Below, one piece after another: positions 30,233 to 53,344 of a stretch of DNA of 64,000 bases (the stretch's first letter is position 1; each line of letters begins with the position of its first letter). The notes under the pieces are model-generated. The model had not been told where the DNA came from, ran no database searches, and saw only the letters and a list, made by a program, of their open reading frames with translations. The position numbers and the translations under genes were made by a program. Origin of the DNA: Patescibacteria group bacterium (GTDB lineage Bacteria > Patescibacteriota > Microgenomatia > UBA1400 > PJMF01); assembly GCA_049322655.1 (NCBI GenBank), contig JBMORP010000006.1, forward strand, positions 13,863-77,862, written 5' to 3'.

Positions 30233-30261
30233 TTGACAAATAAGTTATATTCAATTATAAT
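30233..30261 (+). promoter_or_regulatory. Perfect sigma70 consensus promoter TTGACA-17nt-TATAAT
   Basis: Exact consensus hexamers with a 17-nt spacer read directly from the sequence; about 160 nt upstream of the small peptide ORF. Confidence 0.6.
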
Positions 30262-30422
30262 TGTTGGTATATAAAACTTAGTGTACTGCACACTGCTGTT
30301 TTAAAATAAAAGGTAAGCAATTTATTTGCTTTCTTTCTTGAGTAAGGGCATTCATTTTAGGTATTGGTCAAGCTGATACTTAAATTGAATGCCATTATCA
30401 TTCTGAAAGGAGGTGAAATGTA

Positions 30423-30548
30423 ATGGCTACTTGTCAGCATTCTTGGTATACCAAGTCATATTTTCCGCACAGATTTTTGTTCTGGCGGTACATTTGGCAA
30501 AAGTGTACTAAATGCAATGCTTGGAGAATCAAACGATACTCTAAGTAA
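30423..30548 (+). CDS. Small ORF (41 aa) encoding a highly cationic Trp/Cys-rich peptide, MATCQHSWYTKSYFPHRFLFWRYIWQKCTKCNAWRIKRYSK; candidate leaderless-bacteriocin-like peptide
   Basis: Not in the ORF track (under 60 aa). Preceded by AAAGGAGGTG, the strongest Shine-Dalgarno site in the window, then ATG-TAA-(A)TG. Net charge +9 with no Asp/Glu. Followed by an intrinsic terminator and an ABC-2 exporter. Confidence 0.45.
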   Translation: MATCQHSWYTKSYFPHRFLFWRYIWQKCTKCNAWRIKRYSK

Positions 30549-30552
30549 AAAA

Positions 30553-30581
30553 AGAGCCGTCTCGGAAGGGACGGCTTTTCT
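30553..30581 (+). terminator. Stem-loop with short U-tract (candidate partial terminator/attenuator) between the small ORF and the ABC ATPase gene
   Basis: AGCCGTC-TCGGAAGG-GACGGCT followed by TTTC. Lies 15 nt before the ABC ATPase ATG and overlaps a TGGTATACT extended -10-like element. Confidence 0.5.
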
Positions 30582-30595
30582 GGTATACTTACCAG

Positions 30596-31534
30596 ATGAA
30601 AACTGTGCTGAAAGTAGCTGATCTCACCAAGATCTATCCACCAGAAAAAAAAGGTGGCAAGTCTTTTACTGCTTTGGACGGTGTATCTTTTGAGTTAAAA
30701 GCAGGAGAAATCTTAGGTTTATTAGGTCCCAATGGGGCTGGTAAATCTACTACTATCTCGATTTTACTGGGTAACTTATCGGCAAATTCTGGAACAGTTG
30801 AGTATTTTGGTAAAGAATTTAACCAACATCGTAGTGAGATTTTGGATCAAGTCACTTTTGCTAGCACCTATATCAAAATGCCATGGAGACTTTCGGTCAT
30901 GGAAAACCTTCGGGTCTACTCTCTTTTATACGGTGTGGAGAAAAAGGTTTTCTTGGAGAGAGCAGAAAAATTTTTAAAGTTTTTTGAGGTTTGGTCACAA
31001 AGAGACAAAACCATGAATAATTTATCTGCTGGTCAGATTACCAGAATTATGTTGGCTAAAGCCTTTATTCCCCATCCTAAAATAGTGTTATTGGATGAGC
31101 CAACTGCTTCTTTGGATCCAGATATTGCCCATCAAGTCAGAGACTTTATTAAGCAACAACAGGGCAAGTTTAATACCAGTATTTTATATACCTCTCACAA
31201 TATGGACGAAGTAGCTGATGTCTGTGATCAAGTAATGTTTCTTAAAAATGGCAAGATTATTGCTCACGACAAGCCAGAGAACTTAGCTCAATCAGTCTCG
31301 GTGGCCAAAATGACCTTGAGGATTAAAGATGGATTAAAAAGGGTGAATCGATTCTCCAAAGAGCAAAACTTGAAAATAGAAGTAGTTGATCGAGATGCCA
31401 TGATCGAAATAGATGAACAAGAAGTAGCTGGTTTTTTGGCTTTATTGGCTAGTGAGGATATTACTTACTCACAAATCAGTATCGATAAACCCACTTTAGA
31501 AGACTATTTTTTGACCATTGGTGGTAAGAAATAA
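30596..31534 (+). CDS. ABC transporter ATP-binding protein (ABC-2 exporter type)
   Basis: Walker A GPNGAGKST, signature LSAGQ, Walker B ILLDEPT, 80-aa C-terminal extension. No SD; possibly leaderless. Confidence 0.85.
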   Translation: MKTVLKVADLTKIYPPEKKGGKSFTALDGVSFELKAGEILGLLGPNGAGKSTTISILLGNLSANSGTVEYFGKEFNQHRSEILDQVTFASTYIKMPWRLSVMENLRVYSLLYGVEKKVFLERAEKFLKFFEVWSQRDKTMNNLSAGQITRIMLAKAFIPHPKIVLLDEPTASLDPDIAHQVRDFIKQQQGKFNTSILYTSHNMDEVADVCDQVMFLKNGKIIAHDKPENLAQSVSVAKMTLRIKDGLKRVNRFSKEQNLKIEVVDRDAMIEIDEQEVAGFLALLASEDITYSQISIDKPTLEDYFLTIGGKK

Positions 31535-51406: not shown

Positions 51407-51414
51407 CAGCAATG

Positions 51415-51440
51415 AAAAAGCTCCATACGGAGCTTTTTTA
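51415..51440. terminator. Bidirectional rho-independent terminator after tRNA-Gly(CCC) and after gene 51438..51749 (-)
   Basis: AAAAAGCTCC-ATAC-GGAGCTTTTTT. Confidence 0.7.
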
Positions 51441-51749
51441 ACTTTTATTTTCTTTTTTAATAGTTTTCCAATGATAAAAATAAACTGGTCCACCAACCAG
51501 CATCATGGCTAGGCTATTGCTAAATTGTCTTTTTCTTTGATTGGCTTGTTCTTCTTCATACATTTTTTTGTTTTGTTCTCTGATGGCAGGAGACTCTGTT
51601 TCGGCATAGTAGTAACCATAATCATTAACTTTAAACACATAAGTTTTTAGGGTAAGATCCACGATTTGGATGCTACCAATAATTAAAATTAGTAAGCCGA
51701 CAAAAGAAAAAAGATACAAGTAAAGCAAACGTAAGTTGAGTTTCATCAT
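51438..51749 (-). CDS. Small membrane protein (103 aa, two TM helices), unknown function
   Basis: Hydrophobic helices LLYLYLFSFVGLLILIIGSI and LAMMLVGGPVYFY; inside the tRNA-bounded island. Confidence 0.45.
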   Translation of the reverse strand: MMKLNLRLLYLYLFSFVGLLILIIGSIQIVDLTLKTYVFKVNDYGYYYAETESPAIREQNKKMYEEEQANQRKRQFSNSLAMMLVGGPVYFYHWKTIKKENKS

Positions 51750-51776
51750 TAGCCTTTCAACTATCAGTTTACCATT

Positions 51777-51803
51777 ATAAAAAAAGCTCCGTATATAGGA
51801 GCT
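51777..51803 (-). terminator. Rho-independent terminator (minus strand) downstream of gene 51890..52195
   Basis: On the minus strand: AGCTCC-TATATAC-GGAGCT followed by TTTTTT. Confidence 0.6.
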
Positions 51804-51889
51804 CAGATAAATGTTTTTGTTAAAGCCACACTGATTTTTAGTTTTTCAATGGAAGAGGAGGCGCACATGAGTTGTGCACCTCCTCTTTT

Positions 51890-52195
51890 CTAAGGGTACA
51901 AAACCTCATCCACATGGTCTTTCCAGTCATCAGGAATCGGGAAAATTGGTGAGTAAGCATAAATCAGGTGCTGCACCAACGATCCGATAGCTATTGACAG
52001 GATAATCCAAAGTCCAGGTTTTACGTGGATGGAAATCACGAAAAAAGCAATCATTGCAAGAACCATCACATTGTGGTGATAGTTATACTTCAGCGTTTTC
52101 GTAATTTTCCAAAGGAGGAAGGTCAGTACGTTTCCGGCTACTGCCTGGGCTAACGCCCAAAGTACAATCCAGATAATCCAAAGATGTGTGTTCAT
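51890..52195 (-). CDS. Small membrane protein (101 aa, about 3 TM helices), GC-enriched relative to surroundings
   Basis: RBS GAGAGG 7 nt before the ATG. Hydrophobic helices. A 150-nt stretch that I counted is about 44% GC, against about 35% background. Confidence 0.5.
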   Translation of the reverse strand: MNTHLWIIWIVLWALAQAVAGNVLTFLLWKITKTLKYNYHHNVMVLAMIAFFVISIHVKPGLWIILSIAIGSLVQHLIYAYSPIFPIPDDWKDHVDEVLYP

Positions 52196-52241
52196 AGTTT
52201 ACCTCTCGTTTTTTTACTCTCTCCTGTTTTACCAGGAGAGG

Positions 52242-52288
52242 CTTGGGGAAAATAAAACTTATTATAAATAAGCTTTATTTTCCCCAAG
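52242..52288. repeat. 21-bp near-perfect inverted repeat (CTTGGGGAAAATAAAACTTAT / ATAAGCTTTATTTTCCCCAAG) with 5-nt spacer, adjacent to a second hairpin (52219..52240, CTCTCCTG-TTTTAC-CAGGAGAG)
   Basis: Read directly from the sequence; one mismatch in 21 bp; no flanking U-tract on either strand, so it is not a canonical terminator. Confidence 0.7.
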
Positions 52289-52435
52289 TACATAGAGGTA
52301 GCTAAAATCAGTGTGGCAGTATTCTGCTAATAATAAAGATTAGTTTGAAAGCAATTTTCATTTAAACTTTATTATTAATTTTAAAGAACCTGTCCATTAT
52401 ATCTTACATCCTATAATTTGTCAATATAAGACTAT

Positions 52436-53344
52436 TTAATGAATAGTACTCCAGTGAGTTTCATCATTAGATCCTTTAAAACCGTAAATTTTCATCCAGC
52501 TGTTATTTCCGGCTGAATCAACTTGAGATTGCCACTCACTAAATTCTAGGCCAAACTCAGCAAAAGCTTTAAGTTTTCTTTTTAAGGCTGATTGTGAATC
52601 ACTCATTAAATAACGAAGGCTTTCCAAAAAAGAATAGATTGTTCTGAGATGCTTGGCTGAAAGTTTATTGGCTAAATCAATTTCTATTTTTTGGTAATTA
52701 GCGGCTGAGAATTGATACTCAATTTCTTGTTGGTCAAAATTGTAGTTGGCACCAATCACAATGGTTACAGCTTCAAAATTACTTATTTTGATAATGATCA
52801 TGTCAGCAGGAGAGGTGTCTGCTTCTAGGCTACGCAGTTGAAAAGTATCGAGTCTCATCTCAATGTAACAACCGCTAAATTCTTTTTGAGTCCGATCTCC
52901 CATTTTAAAAACAAAAAACTCATTACTTCTTTCTTTATTACCTAGATCTGGAGGGTTATTCATCACAATCAATTCGGTAATTCCAGGCATTTTTAACCAA
53001 TCAAGGTATTCATGAGTTAAAAAGTTTTCAATATCAGCCACAGTTTTAATACCCATAACCCAAGGAGAATTGTTTGGCTGTGGAGAAAAACAAGTTCTAA
53101 CACCAACATTACAACCTCTTTTTACACCATTGAGTAATTCTTCAATTAACTGTTCTCGGTTGTTAACAGGAATAATTTCTCTAGAAATAATGGTTTTTTT
53201 AGGAAGTAAATTACAGTTAGAAGTGAAAAATCCTTCAGTCTGGGCTTTTTTACTTTTCCAAATATGACTAACAGTATTACTAAATTGTTCTAAGATTTGT
53301 CTATAATTAAGAATTTGATGATTAGTTTCCTGATAATTAGTCAT
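52436..53344 (-). CDS. Hypothetical protein (302 aa), no recognisable domain; orphan inside the tRNA-bounded island
   Basis: Long uninterrupted ORF in AT-rich DNA; no motif I could assign. Confidence 0.4.
   Translation of the reverse strand: MTNYQETNHQILNYRQILEQFSNTVSHIWKSKKAQTEGFFTSNCNLLPKKTIISREIIPVNNREQLIEELLNGVKRGCNVGVRTCFSPQPNNSPWVMGIKTVADIENFLTHEYLDWLKMPGITELIVMNNPPDLGNKERSNEFFVFKMGDRTQKEFSGCYIEMRLDTFQLRSLEADTSPADMIIIKISNFEAVTIVIGANYNFDQQEIEYQFSAANYQKIEIDLANKLSAKHLRTIYSFLESLRYLMSDSQSALKRKLKAFAEFGLEFSEWQSQVDSAGNNSWMKIYGFKGSNDETHWSTIH

What the first reader, a model, noticed from the sequence alone, without database searches (positions are those of the whole stretch)
52219..52288. Tandem hairpins in the 5' region of the GC-rich membrane gene, including a 21-bp near-perfect palindrome
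CTTGGGGAAAATAAAACTTAT-tataa-ATAAGCTTTATTTTCCCCAAG has one mismatch in 21 bp. It lies immediately next to CTCTCCTG-ttttac-CAGGAGAG. Neither is followed by a U-tract on either strand, so they are unlikely to be intrinsic terminators. A 21-bp palindrome is long for an operator. Alternatives are a recombination/attachment site of the putative island, a replication or partition-related element, or an RNA structure in the 5' UTR of gene 51890..52195.
Basis: seen in the sequence. Interest (0 to 1): 0.5.

Follow-up and report, generated by a model that had tools for sequence, protein, structure and literature searches.

The report
RBS-masking leader hairpins, orphan membrane gene
The two hairpins are real and most likely are RNA stems in the long leader of a lineage-specific small membrane-protein mRNA in a Patescibacteria genome, holding the ribosome-binding site shut; this is a known kind of control, here in an unusually tightly folded mRNA.

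Summary
A 22-bp hairpin (52242-52288) and an 8-bp hairpin (52219-52240) lie 7-93 nt upstream of the ATG of the minus-strand gene 51890..52195.

They are not terminators, not a repeat family and not in Rfam. They sit about 100-170 nt downstream of a perfect TTGACA-17-TATAAT promoter, so they should be transcribed as part of a ~190-nt leader.

On the minus strand they fold as two arms of a three-way junction. Its closing helix pairs UACCUCU (52300-52294) with the Shine-Dalgarno AGAGGUA (52206-52200). Modelled SD accessibility is 0.005. This is the most stable 110-nt fold in the 64-kb window.

A 14-nt 5'-3' UTR pairing and a 15-bp 3' hairpin make the whole 614-nt mRNA extremely compact (z = -13.9).

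The gene is truly coding but an orphan, with GC3 of 0.51 against about 0.25 in neighbours. The hairpins occur in all 8 loci that carry the gene and in none of 6 relatives without it.

The stems evolve more slowly than 4-fold sites. Formal covariation across the four haplotypes is not significant.

Best reading: a cis-acting translational lock and mRNA stabiliser, possibly opened by RNase III. It resembles a type I toxin mRNA but is not a member of that class. Interest is moderate to low.

The parts
52396..52424 (-). Sigma-70-type promoter: -35 TTGACA (52424-52419), 17-nt spacer, -10 TATAAT (52401-52396). The inferred transcription start is about 52389.
   Evidence: It matches the consensus at 12 of 12 positions. 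Both hexamers are invariant in all four haplotypes, while the spacer (52407, 52403) and positions 52395-52391 vary.
52328..52377 (-). AT-rich leader hairpin A, a 14+5 bp composite stem at the 5' end of the leader.
   Evidence: It is in the MFE structure and was found as inverted repeat I9. The A-to-G change at 52376 in the L004 group keeps a G.U pair. The L003 change at 52336 breaks one pair.
52304..52317 (-). 5' arm of the 14-nt long-distance 5'-3' UTR pairing (GCCACACUGAUUUU).
   Evidence: It is a perfect 14-nt inverted repeat with 51825-51838 (I7). Pair probabilities are 0.3-1.0, and about 1.0 for the 10 GC-containing pairs, in the fold of the whole mRNA. It is invariant in all haplotypes.
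52290..52300 (-). P1 5' strand, including the anti-SD UACCUCU (52300-52294) plus UGU.
   Evidence: It pairs with 52200-52209 in the MFE and the centroid, with pair probabilities 0.64-1.0.
52242..52288 (-). P2: the 22-bp hairpin with a 3-nt loop, which is the palindrome of the finding.
   Evidence: -27.8 kcal/mol on the minus strand against -23.5 on the plus strand. It is present in 8 of 8 gene-bearing loci. Between haplotype groups there is only an apical A-to-G change (a U.G pair) and a 1-nt loop insertion.
52219..52240 (-). P3: the 8-bp hairpin CUCUCCUG/CAGGAGAG with a 6-nt loop. Its 5' arm contains a second anti-SD-like CCUCUC.
   Evidence: -13.6 kcal/mol. The A-to-G change at 52225 in the L004 and L013 groups keeps a U.G pair.
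52210..52218 (-). J3/1: an unpaired A-rich junction (AGUAAAAAA) between P3 and the SD strand.
   Evidence: It is unpaired in the MFE and the centroid.
52200..52209 (-). P1 3' strand, including the Shine-Dalgarno AGAGGU, 5 nt before the ATG at 52195.
   Evidence: The mean unpaired probability of the SD is 0.005 at 37 C. The RBS region is the second least accessible of 56 genes in the window (0.08 against a median of 0.44).
51890..52195 (-). ORF of 101 aa: three predicted transmembrane helices plus a C-terminal helix. It is an orphan.
   Evidence: Window against L004 shows 25 substitutions, 16 in third positions, with 16 synonymous and 7 non-synonymous codon changes. The only homologues are its own cluster at >=93% identity. 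There are no Pfam or NCBIfam hits at E<=0.1, and PHROG and PADLOC give only weak hits (best E 0.018). The helices come from a low-confidence model with pTM 0.33.
51853..51887 (-). 3' UTR hairpin of 15 bp without a U-tract on the minus strand.
   Evidence: -26.4 kcal/mol on the minus strand against -23.8 on the plus strand. Its one mismatch is again a G.U pair on the minus strand. In L004 one A-U pair becomes G-C and the U.G becomes U-A, while the outer pairs are lost.
51825..51838 (-). 3' arm of the long-distance pairing (AAAAUCAGUGUGGC).
   Evidence: (I7). It is invariant, whereas the neighbouring 3' UTR positions 51840-51856 vary and carry indels.
51784..51804 (-). Canonical intrinsic terminator of the unit: GAGCUCC...GGAGCUU followed by UUUUUUU.

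Best explanation
The two hairpins are RNA elements, here called P2 and P3, of a three-way junction in the ~190-nt 5' leader of the mRNA for an orphan 101-aa membrane protein.

**How it is proposed to work**
- Transcription starts at a consensus promoter, near 52389.
- As the leader is made, the 22-bp and 8-bp hairpins fold locally. This brings the upstream anti-SD (UACCUCU, 52300-52294) next to the Shine-Dalgarno (AGAGGUA, 52206-52200).
- The closing helix P1 then forms and keeps the ribosome-binding site occluded. This is cis-repression of translation.
- Together with a 14-nt 5'-3' UTR pairing and a 3' hairpin, the whole mRNA becomes compact and nuclease-resistant but translationally locked.
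- Expression would need an event that separates the anti-SD strand from the SD strand. The most likely candidate is endonucleolytic cleavage in the 22-bp duplex, which has the minimal length of an RNase III substrate.

**Shown here:** the sequence elements, their thermodynamic exceptionality, their conservation, their strict co-occurrence with the gene, and the promoter and SD context.

**Inferred:** that the leader is transcribed from this promoter, that P1 forms in vivo, and the nature of the trigger.
For: **Promoter.** It matches consensus at 12/12 positions, 108 nt upstream of P2. Its hexamers are conserved while the spacer varies.

**Fold.** The three-way junction is both MFE and centroid, at -52.9 kcal/mol with z = -10.0. 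It is the most stable of 12,778 110-nt windows.

**SD occlusion.** The modelled unpaired probability of the SD is 0.005. It rises to 0.22-0.32 when the anti-SD strand is removed or P2 is cut, and stays at 0.005 when only the 3' end is trimmed. The RBS accessibility is second lowest of 56 genes.

**Strand of function.** Every imperfect stem position is a G.U pair on the minus strand and A.C on the plus strand, both in the window and in the L004 and L013 lineages (5 of 5, one-sided binomial p = 0.03). All four structures tested on both strands (P2, P3, the 3' hairpin and the junction) are 1.5-4.3 kcal/mol more stable on the minus strand.

**Compensatory changes.** The P1 pair G52291-C52208 is A-U in L004 and L005, with the A.C intermediate in L013 and L014. 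In the 3' hairpin one A-U pair becomes G-C.

**Purifying selection.** The hairpins show 2 substitutions in 70 nt and the leader 6 in 195 nt, against 46 of 262 at 4-fold degenerate sites of flanking genes (Fisher p = 9e-4 and 4e-7).

**Co-occurrence.** The palindrome is present in 8 of 8 loci with the gene and 0 of 6 related loci without it.

**Whole mRNA.** MFE is -216.6 kcal/mol with z = -13.9, and the long-distance pairing has probability about 1.

**Precedent.** RBS occlusion relieved by RNase III cleavage is established for adhE and lambda cIII, and 22 nt is quoted as the minimal target size (PMC5371410).
Against: - There are no expression data, so the transcription start is inferred from a consensus match only.
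- Only four closely related haplotypes exist. The formal covariation test is not significant: 242 of 500 shuffles reach the observed score.
- Haplotype L003 carries three pair-breaking changes, including U52294C in P1. With L003 included, the strand-asymmetry count is 5 of 7 (p = 0.23).
- With four haplotypes RNAalifold drops the three inner P1 pairs.
- Against the slowest flanking gene alone (Dus), the hairpin conservation is only marginal (p = 0.06).
- No RNase III gene is visible in the 64-kb window, and no cleavage evidence exists.
- Conservation of a palindrome is equally expected for a DNA site.
Confidence: 0.55

Rival explanations
1. The unit is a type I toxin-antitoxin-like module. The 101-aa membrane protein is toxic, and its mRNA is kept inert by SD/anti-SD pairing and a 5'-3' long-distance interaction, as in hok or aapA mRNAs. 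An antisense RNA that has not been detected would neutralise the activated form. The hairpins would be the folding scaffold, the antisense target, or both.
For: The determinants that T1TAdb uses to recognise toxin mRNAs are all predicted here. These are SD/anti-SD pairing, 5' stem-loops, a 3' terminator and a 5'-3' long-distance interaction (PMC8594479; PMC6733600). The product is a small hydrophobic membrane protein that is an orphan and lineage-specific, with foreign codon usage and its own strong promoter and terminator. The whole-mRNA z-score is -13.9.
Against: The protein has 101 aa and three predicted TM helices, against 20-60 aa for type I toxins. The predicted mRNA is about 610 nt, against 150-400 nt. 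No antisense promoter scoring at least 9 of 12 lies opposite the ORF or the hairpins; the two + strand candidates at that score (52390-52417, 52418-52447) lie upstream of the hairpins and point away from them. There is no plus-strand terminator there. Removing the 3' arm of the long-distance pairing does not free the SD in the model, unlike hok or aapA activation. Toxicity has not been tested.
Confidence: 0.15
2. The hairpins are constitutive mRNA-stability elements, giving 5' and 3' protection from RNases or Rho. They may be relics carried in with a horizontally acquired gene, without a switchable regulatory role. On this view the anti-SD pairing only tunes translation down.
For: Stable 5' and 3' hairpins and 5'/3' UTR pairing are known to control RNase access, as in hbs mRNA (PMC5737220). 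A second strongly structured leader behind a 12/12 promoter exists in the same window at 30233-30600, so long leader hairpins may be a habit of this genome. No alternative SD-open conformer is evident in the model without cleavage.
Against: An SD accessibility of 0.005 is extreme for mere tuning. A consensus promoter combined with a near-complete translational block suggests a gated system.
Confidence: 0.15
3. The three-way junction is a sensor, either a new riboswitch or a protein-binding leader. Binding of a ligand or protein would open or stabilise P1.
For: The architecture, with P1 closing a three-way junction and containing the SD, is that of many translational riboswitches. The leader is under purifying selection.
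Against: There is no Rfam match; the best is 26.6 bits for RsaF on the opposite strand, against a gathering score of 60. The junction is minimal, with 1 + 1 + 9 unpaired nt. P2 is a perfect 22-bp rod without internal loops, unlike known aptamers. The element is confined to one species-level lineage upstream of an orphan gene.
Confidence: 0.07
4. The palindrome acts as DNA. It could be an operator or roadblock site for a dimeric regulator, a recombinase or Xer-type site, or a remnant of a mobile cassette bounded by the 14-nt inverted repeats (51825-51838 and 52304-52317) and the 16-nt direct repeats (51737-51752 and 52455-52470).
For: The palindrome is near-perfect and conserved. The unit is bracketed by a perfect 16-nt direct repeat and contains 14-nt inverted repeats. 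The gene has foreign codon usage and lies between two tRNA genes. Related genomes have different gene content at this position.
Against: The centre is about +124 from the inferred start, and 22-nt arms are too long for a usual operator. The palindrome is internal rather than at a junction, and no recombinase, transposase or regulator gene is adjacent. It is single-copy everywhere searched. The mismatches are G.U on the sense strand. The enclosing P1 helix makes sense only for a single strand. Both copies of the direct repeat are native coding sequence. No target-site duplication flanks the inverted repeats.
Confidence: 0.08

Closest known systems
RNase III-gated RBS occlusion (E. coli adhE leader, phage lambda cIII) (PMC5371410)
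   Same: The RBS is buried in an intramolecular leader structure, and a long perfect duplex of minimal RNase III size (22 bp) lies between the occluding strand and the SD. In the model, cutting there raises SD accessibility about 50-fold.
   Different: There is no sequence relationship. Cleavage has not been shown, and no RNase III gene is visible in the 64 kb available. The gene is an orphan membrane protein in Patescibacteria.
Type I toxin mRNAs with 5'-3' long-distance interaction (hok/Sok, aapA/IsoA) (PMC8594479, PMC6733600)
   Same: Both have a strong promoter and a compactly folded mRNA. The SD is sequestered by an anti-SD. There are 5' stem-loops, a 14-nt 5'-3' end pairing and a small hydrophobic membrane product.
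   Different: The product has 101 aa and three predicted TM helices, not 20-60 aa. The mRNA is about 610 nt. No antisense RNA gene was found. The long-distance pairing does not itself contain the anti-SD, and 3' trimming does not open the SD in the model.
icaR (S. aureus) and hbs (B. subtilis) 5'/3' UTR interactions (PMC3868564, PMC5737220)
   Same: Base pairing between the 5' and 3' UTR of one mRNA affects translation, RNase access or both.
   Different: In icaR the 3' UTR carries the anti-SD. Here the anti-SD is in the 5' leader, and the 3' arm pairs just upstream of it.
Intrinsic (Rho-independent) terminators
   Same: Both are stable GC-clamped hairpins in an intergenic region.
   Different: There is no U-tract on either strand. 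This genome's own terminators do have U-tracts. A promoter lies between the upstream gene and the hairpins.

Membership tests
Intrinsic terminator | GC-rich hairpin followed directly by a U-tract on the transcribed strand | tested here: not met
   Neither hairpin is listed by the terminator scan, while canonical terminators at 51413-51440 (+) and 51804-51784 (-) are. The sequence shows an A-run after P3 on the minus strand.
Any Rfam family (riboswitches, leaders, sRNAs) | Covariance-model score at or above the family's gathering threshold | tested here: not met
   Only tRNAs pass in the window. At E<=10 in 51700-52600 the best match is RsaF at 26.6 bits against a threshold of 60, on the opposite strand; the rest are miRNA-type hairpin matches.
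Type I toxin-antitoxin system (T1TAdb definition) | Toxin of 20-60 aa encoded on an mRNA of 150-400 nt | tested here: not met
   The ORF is 101 aa. The promoter-to-terminator transcript is about 610 nt. The definition is from PMC8594479.
Type I toxin-antitoxin system (T1TAdb definition) | Antisense RNA antitoxin (60-200 nt) base-pairing with the toxin mRNA | tested here: inconclusive
   No plus-strand promoter scoring at least 9 of 12 lies opposite the ORF or the hairpins. The two + strand candidates at that score (52390-52417, 52418-52447) lie upstream of the hairpins and point away from them. No plus-strand terminator is present there. A consensus scan cannot exclude a weak or non-canonical promoter.
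Type I toxin-antitoxin system (T1TAdb definition) | SD sequestered by an anti-SD, 5' stem-loops and a 5'-3' long-distance interaction in the toxin mRNA | tested here: met
   This is predicted only. The P1 anti-SD/SD pairs have probability 0.9-1.0, and the 14-nt long-distance pairing has probability about 1.
REP / MITE-like dispersed palindromic repeat | Many copies dispersed in the genome | tested here: not met
   There is a single copy in the 64-kb window at up to 3 mismatches. The only match in 185,579 species-representative genomes is the same locus. There are none in JGI metagenomes or IMG/VR. Caveat: the rest of this organism's own genome (~650 kb) could not be scanned.
Attachment / site-specific recombination site | Located at the junction of inserted DNA, duplicated at both ends, with a recombinase gene nearby | tested here: not met
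   The palindrome is internal to the unit. The flanking ORFs are a 302-aa protein of unknown function, DUF5671, Dus and HAD. The repeats that do bracket the unit are a different 16-mer.
RNA thermometer | SD pairing melts over a physiological temperature rise | tested here: not met
   The modelled unpaired probability of the SD is 0.001 at 10 C, 0.005 at 37 C and only 0.036 at 65 C.
RNase III substrate | Uninterrupted dsRNA of about 22 bp or more (criterion as quoted in PMC5371410) | tested here: met
   P2 has 22 consecutive pairs in all four haplotypes. Actual cleavage is not testable with these tools.
Transcription-factor operator | Short dyad overlapping or adjacent to the promoter | tested here: not met
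   The dyad centre at 52265 is about 124 nt downstream of the inferred start, and the arms are 22 nt long.

The most novel reading that the evidence does not exclude
A previously undescribed, toxin-like, self-locked gene module in Patescibacteria. An orphan membrane protein with three predicted TM helices would be transcribed from a consensus promoter. Its hok-like closed mRNA would be translationally inert until RNase III, or another trigger, cuts the 22-bp hairpin. This would extend type-I-TA-style RNA logic to a much larger protein and to the candidate phyla radiation. The held literature pairs neither term: 0 papers contain both 'Patescibacteria' and 'type I toxin-antitoxin'.
Probability: 0.12. 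Interest if true: 0.65.

Novelty: new member of a known kind. Interest (0 to 1): 0.35.

Why it matters
If the model is right, this is a clean, compact example of translational locking by an anti-SD helix clamped over two hairpins. It occurs in an ultra-small Patescibacteria genome, where post-transcriptional regulation is almost unstudied, and it is attached to a lineage-specific orphan membrane gene with foreign codon usage. It would make a convenient test case for how such organisms silence newly acquired or potentially harmful membrane proteins, and for RNase III-gated expression outside model bacteria. If it is only a stabilising leader, it is ordinary biology. Either way, the att-site, origin and operator ideas can be set aside.

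Tried and rejected
**RNA families.** Rfam at gathering thresholds and at E<=10 gave nothing relevant.

**Terminator reading.** Rejected, because there is no U-tract while the genome uses canonical terminators.

**Repeat family or att site.**
- The 21-mer was searched with up to 3 mismatches in the window.
- A 14+14-nt arm pattern was searched in genome contigs, metagenome contigs and viral contigs.
- The inverted-repeat pair pattern was searched in viral contigs.
- Only the same locus was found.

**Homologues of the 101-aa protein.**
- The word-indexed search of 5.8e9 proteins and the exhaustive HMMER search of 1.8e9 representatives found only its own cluster.
- Pfam and NCBIfam gave nothing at E<=0.1. 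PHROGs and PADLOC gave only weak hits, best E 0.018.
- The viral protein scan found nothing.
- The AlphaFold single-sequence model has pTM 0.33, so no fold search was run.

**Empty-site comparison.** The closest cassette-free relative (L006, DUF5671 87% identical) is too diverged. The local alignment score of 21 is below the shuffle mean of 23.7.

**Antisense RNA.** No plus-strand promoter scoring at least 9 of 12 lies opposite the ORF or the hairpins.

**RNA thermometer.** Rejected by modelling.

**hok-like activation by 3' trimming.** Removing the 3' arm of the long-distance pairing leaves the SD closed in the model.

**Covariation statistics.** Not significant with four haplotypes.

**Leader peptide.** A 17-codon uORF (52361..52308, MKIAFKLIFIISRILPH) has a stop inside the long-distance arm. 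Its IFII-S resembles, from memory, the ErmCL IFVI-S stalling motif. However, the expected number of such ORFs by chance in this AT-rich leader is about 1. The SD is weak. The only changes in it (L003) are non-synonymous. It is not pursued as an explanation.

**RNase III gene.** A signature-motif scan of the window found none, which is uninformative for a 64-kb sample.

**Paralogy with DUF5671.** The idea that the 101-aa gene is a diverged paralogue of the neighbouring DUF5671 gene was rejected by inspection: the topologies differ and there is no similarity.
Full report
**Observation**

- An 8-bp perfect hairpin: CTCTCCTG/CAGGAGAG with a 6-nt loop, at 52219-52240.
- Directly adjacent, a long palindrome whose arms are really 22 nt (52242-52263 and 52267-52288), with one mismatch and a 3-nt loop.
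- The 21-mer has no other copy in the 64-kb window at up to three mismatches, with 0.00 matches expected by chance.
- As RNA, the hairpins fold with z-scores of -10.1 and -5.7.
- A scan of all 110-nt windows on both strands of the 64 kb (12,778 folds; mean -17.9, sd 5.9 kcal/mol) puts 52191-52300 on the minus strand first, at -52.7 kcal/mol. That is ahead of every tRNA gene, although the segment is only 34% GC.
- Neither hairpin is followed by a T-run on either strand. The terminator scan does not report them, while it reports ordinary hairpin-plus-T-tract terminators 400-800 bp away.

**Context**

All nearby genes are on the minus strand: a 302-aa ORF (53344..52436), the 101-aa ORF (52195..51890) and a DUF5671 membrane protein (51749..51438). 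They lie between tRNA-Thr and tRNA-Gly.

Just after the stop of the 302-aa gene there is a perfect sigma-70 consensus promoter on the minus strand: TTGACA, 17 nt, TATAAT, at 52424-52396. In four haplotypes of this locus both hexamers are invariant, while the spacer and the five bases after the -10 box vary. That is the pattern expected of a working promoter.

The hairpins therefore lie about 100-170 nt inside a ~190-nt untranslated leader that ends in a good Shine-Dalgarno (AGAGGU) 5 nt before the ATG.

The organism is a Patescibacteria MAG of the Microgenomates/Pacebacteria type. The gene carries the NCBI tag ACOZAK_01835.

**Structure**

The leader folds the same way as MFE and as centroid, for each assumed start tried (52392, 52389, 52386) and with or without the rest of the mRNA. 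The elements are:
- an AT-rich 5' hairpin (52377-52328);
- a three-way junction in which the 22-bp hairpin (P2) and the 8-bp hairpin (P3) are enclosed by a helix P1;
- P1 pairs UACCUCU (52300-52294) with AGAGGUA (52206-52200), which is the SD, and UGU with ACG;
- a 9-nt A-rich strand lies between P3 and the SD.

The junction alone is worth -52.9 kcal/mol (z = -10.0). It is 4.3 kcal/mol more stable on the minus strand than on the plus strand.

The modelled probability that the SD is unpaired is 0.005 at 37 C. The RBS region ranks second least accessible of 56 genes in the window, at 0.08 against a median of 0.44. The block does not melt with temperature (0.036 at 65 C), so an RNA thermometer is unlikely.

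**Beyond the finding's coordinates**

A perfect 14-nt inverted repeat pairs the leader with the 3' UTR: GCCACACUGAUUUU at 52317-52304 with 51838-51825. It forms with probability about 1 in the fold of the whole 614-nt transcript.

A 15-bp hairpin sits right after the stop codon (51887-51853). A canonical terminator follows at 51804-51784.

The complete mRNA has an MFE of -216.6 kcal/mol, against -130 for shuffles (z = -13.9). The coding part alone has z = -3.5.

**RNA or DNA?**

Several points favour RNA on the sense strand.
- The single mismatch of the palindrome, and that of the 3' hairpin, are G.U pairs on the minus strand but A.C on the plus strand.
- In the L004/L005/L010 and L013/L014 haplotypes, the three substitutions in stems (52376, 52262, 52225) are all A-to-G changes that create U.G pairs on the minus strand.
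- That makes five of five imperfect positions in favour of the minus strand (p = 0.03).
- P1 is not a local palindrome, so it can only matter in a single strand. Its pair G52291-C52208 is A-U in L004 and L005, with the A.C intermediate in L013 and L014.
- In the 3' hairpin an A-U pair has become G-C.

The evidence is thin, and this must be stated plainly.
- Only four close haplotypes exist.
- The formal covariation test is not significant: 242 of 500 shuffles reach the observed value.
- Haplotype L003, a 1.6-kb contig, carries three pair-breaking changes, one of them in P1. With these included, the strand-asymmetry count falls to 5 of 7 (p = 0.23).

Conservation is firmer.
- Between the window and the L004 lineage, the 70-nt hairpin segment has 2 substitutions and the 195-nt leader has 6.
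- Four-fold degenerate sites in the flanking and cassette genes have 46 of 262 (Fisher p = 9e-4 and 4e-7).
- Against the slowest gene alone (Dus), the hairpin figure is marginal (p = 0.06).

**The gene**

The 101-aa ORF is truly coding. Window against L004 shows 25 substitutions, 16 of them in third codon positions, with 16 synonymous and 7 non-synonymous codon changes.

It is an orphan. A search of 5.8 billion clustered proteins and an exhaustive HMMER pass over 1.84 billion representatives find only its own cluster of four sequences at >=93% identity. Pfam and NCBIfam give nothing, and PHROGs and PADLOC give only weak hits, best E 0.018.

A low-confidence model (pTM 0.33) shows three long hydrophobic helices and a short C-terminal helix.

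Its GC3 is 0.51, against 0.24-0.30 in the neighbours. This suggests foreign origin or selection for mRNA structure.

**Distribution**

The palindrome is present in all eight other contigs that carry the gene. These come from independent sequencing runs and include one contig mis-binned into a 'Pseudomonadales' MAG. It is absent from the six related loci that lack the gene.

Relatives with homologues of the 302-aa or DUF5671 genes have other genes at this position.

No further copy of the arm pattern exists in 185,579 species-representative genomes, in JGI metagenomes or in IMG/VR. The element therefore belongs to the gene's own promoter-to-terminator unit. It is not a dispersed repeat.

**Mechanism**

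The best-supported reading is a cis-acting translational lock.
- P2 and P3 fold locally as the leader is made.
- They shorten the effective distance between the anti-SD and the SD to a three-way junction.
- P1 then closes over the ribosome-binding site.
- The 5'-3' pairing and the 3' hairpin add a compact, probably nuclease-resistant, closed form.

In the model, trimming the 3' end does not open the SD (0.005). Any event that separates the anti-SD strand from the SD strand raises accessibility to 0.22-0.32, close to the genomic norm; a cut within P2 is one such event.

P2 has exactly the 22 bp quoted as the minimal RNase III target. RBS occlusion relieved by RNase III cleavage is established for adhE and lambda cIII (PMC5371410). 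I therefore propose RNase III, or an equivalent endonuclease, as the trigger. This step is inference only, and no rnc gene is visible in the 64 kb at hand.

**Comparison with known systems**

The overall design matches the determinants used to recognise type I toxin mRNAs: a strong promoter, 5' stem-loops, SD/anti-SD pairing, a 5'-3' long-distance interaction and a small hydrophobic product (PMC8594479, PMC6733600).

Membership fails on three defining features:
- the product is 101 aa, not 20-60 aa;
- the mRNA is about 610 nt, not 150-400 nt;
- no antisense RNA gene was found.

The element works like such an mRNA but should not be filed as one. Interactions between 5' and 3' UTRs as in icaR and hbs (PMC3868564, PMC5737220) are further analogues.

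The other classifications do not hold.
- Riboswitch is unlikely: there is no Rfam hit, the junction is minimal, P2 is a perfect rod, and the element is confined to one lineage.
- Operator, att-site, origin and partition readings lack their defining features, as set out in the membership table.

**Verdict**

This is a real, exceptional and conserved RNA structure in the leader of an orphan membrane-protein gene. It most probably occludes the ribosome-binding site.

It is a new instance of a known kind of control rather than a new kind. Interest is moderate to low (0.35). There is roughly a 12% chance that it represents a new toxin-like, RNase-gated module in Patescibacteria, which would deserve more attention.

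Noticed in passing
window 30233-30600 (+): A second unit has the same design. It has a 12/12 consensus promoter (30233-30261) and a ~150-nt leader with a long hairpin (30347-30394). That hairpin is enclosed by a CUUUCUUUC / GAAAGGAGG anti-SD/SD helix. A 41-codon Cys-rich ORF follows (ATG 30424, MATCQHSWYTKSYF...), then a hairpin at 30555-30576 just before an ABC-transporter ATPase gene (30596..31534). The region has z = -10.2 to -10.6, with no Rfam or Pfam hit for the leader or the small ORF. It could be a leader-peptide attenuator of the ABC transporter.
   Followed up: partly
window 51737-51752 and 52455-52470: A perfect 16-nt direct repeat (TGAGTTTCATCATTAG on the plus strand) brackets the 718-bp promoter-to-terminator unit of the 101-aa gene. 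One copy encodes the conserved C-terminal NDETH of the 302-aa protein. The other is the start (MMKL) of the DUF5671 gene. In L004 the two copies differ at 2 positions. It could be a trace of how the unit was inserted, or a coincidence.
   Followed up: partly
window 51825-51838 and 52304-52317: A perfect 14-nt inverted repeat flanks the ORF and its hairpins. I read it as 5'-3' UTR pairing of the mRNA. As DNA it could also be the terminal inverted repeats of a 493-bp cassette, but no target-site duplication or transposase is present.
   Followed up: yes
window 52308-52361 (-): A 17-codon upstream ORF in the leader (MKIAFKLIFIISRILPH) has a stop codon inside the long-distance-pairing arm, 8 nt before the anti-SD. 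Its IFII-S resembles, from memory, the ErmCL IFVI-S stalling motif. It is compatible with chance, has a weak SD, and has no synonymous variation to test.
   Followed up: partly
window 51413-51440 and 51780-51804: The two terminators on either side of the DUF5671 gene share a 15-nt identical core in inverted orientation (ATACGGAGCTTTTTT). This suggests local duplication of a terminator module (I4 and D10).
   Followed up: no
window 51890-52195: The 101-aa gene is an orphan at the scale of 5.8 billion proteins, yet it is under purifying selection. Its GC3 is twice that of its neighbours (0.51 against about 0.25). Its coding region is itself more structured than shuffles (z = -3.5).
   Followed up: yes
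L010 (contig CAYSQA010000006.1), 1-240: A 44.5-kb contig filed under an 'uncultured Pseudomonadales' MAG carries this Patescibacteria locus (L004 haplotype) and starts inside the 8-bp hairpin. It is probably a mis-binned contig, with an assembly break at the hairpins.
   Followed up: partly
window 52436-53344 (-): The 302-aa protein upstream has no Pfam family and only five homologue clusters (47-94% identity), all apparently in related Patescibacteria. It has a strongly conserved C-terminal WMKIYG.KGS.D.T.W motif, and its genomic neighbourhood differs in every relative.
   Followed up: partly
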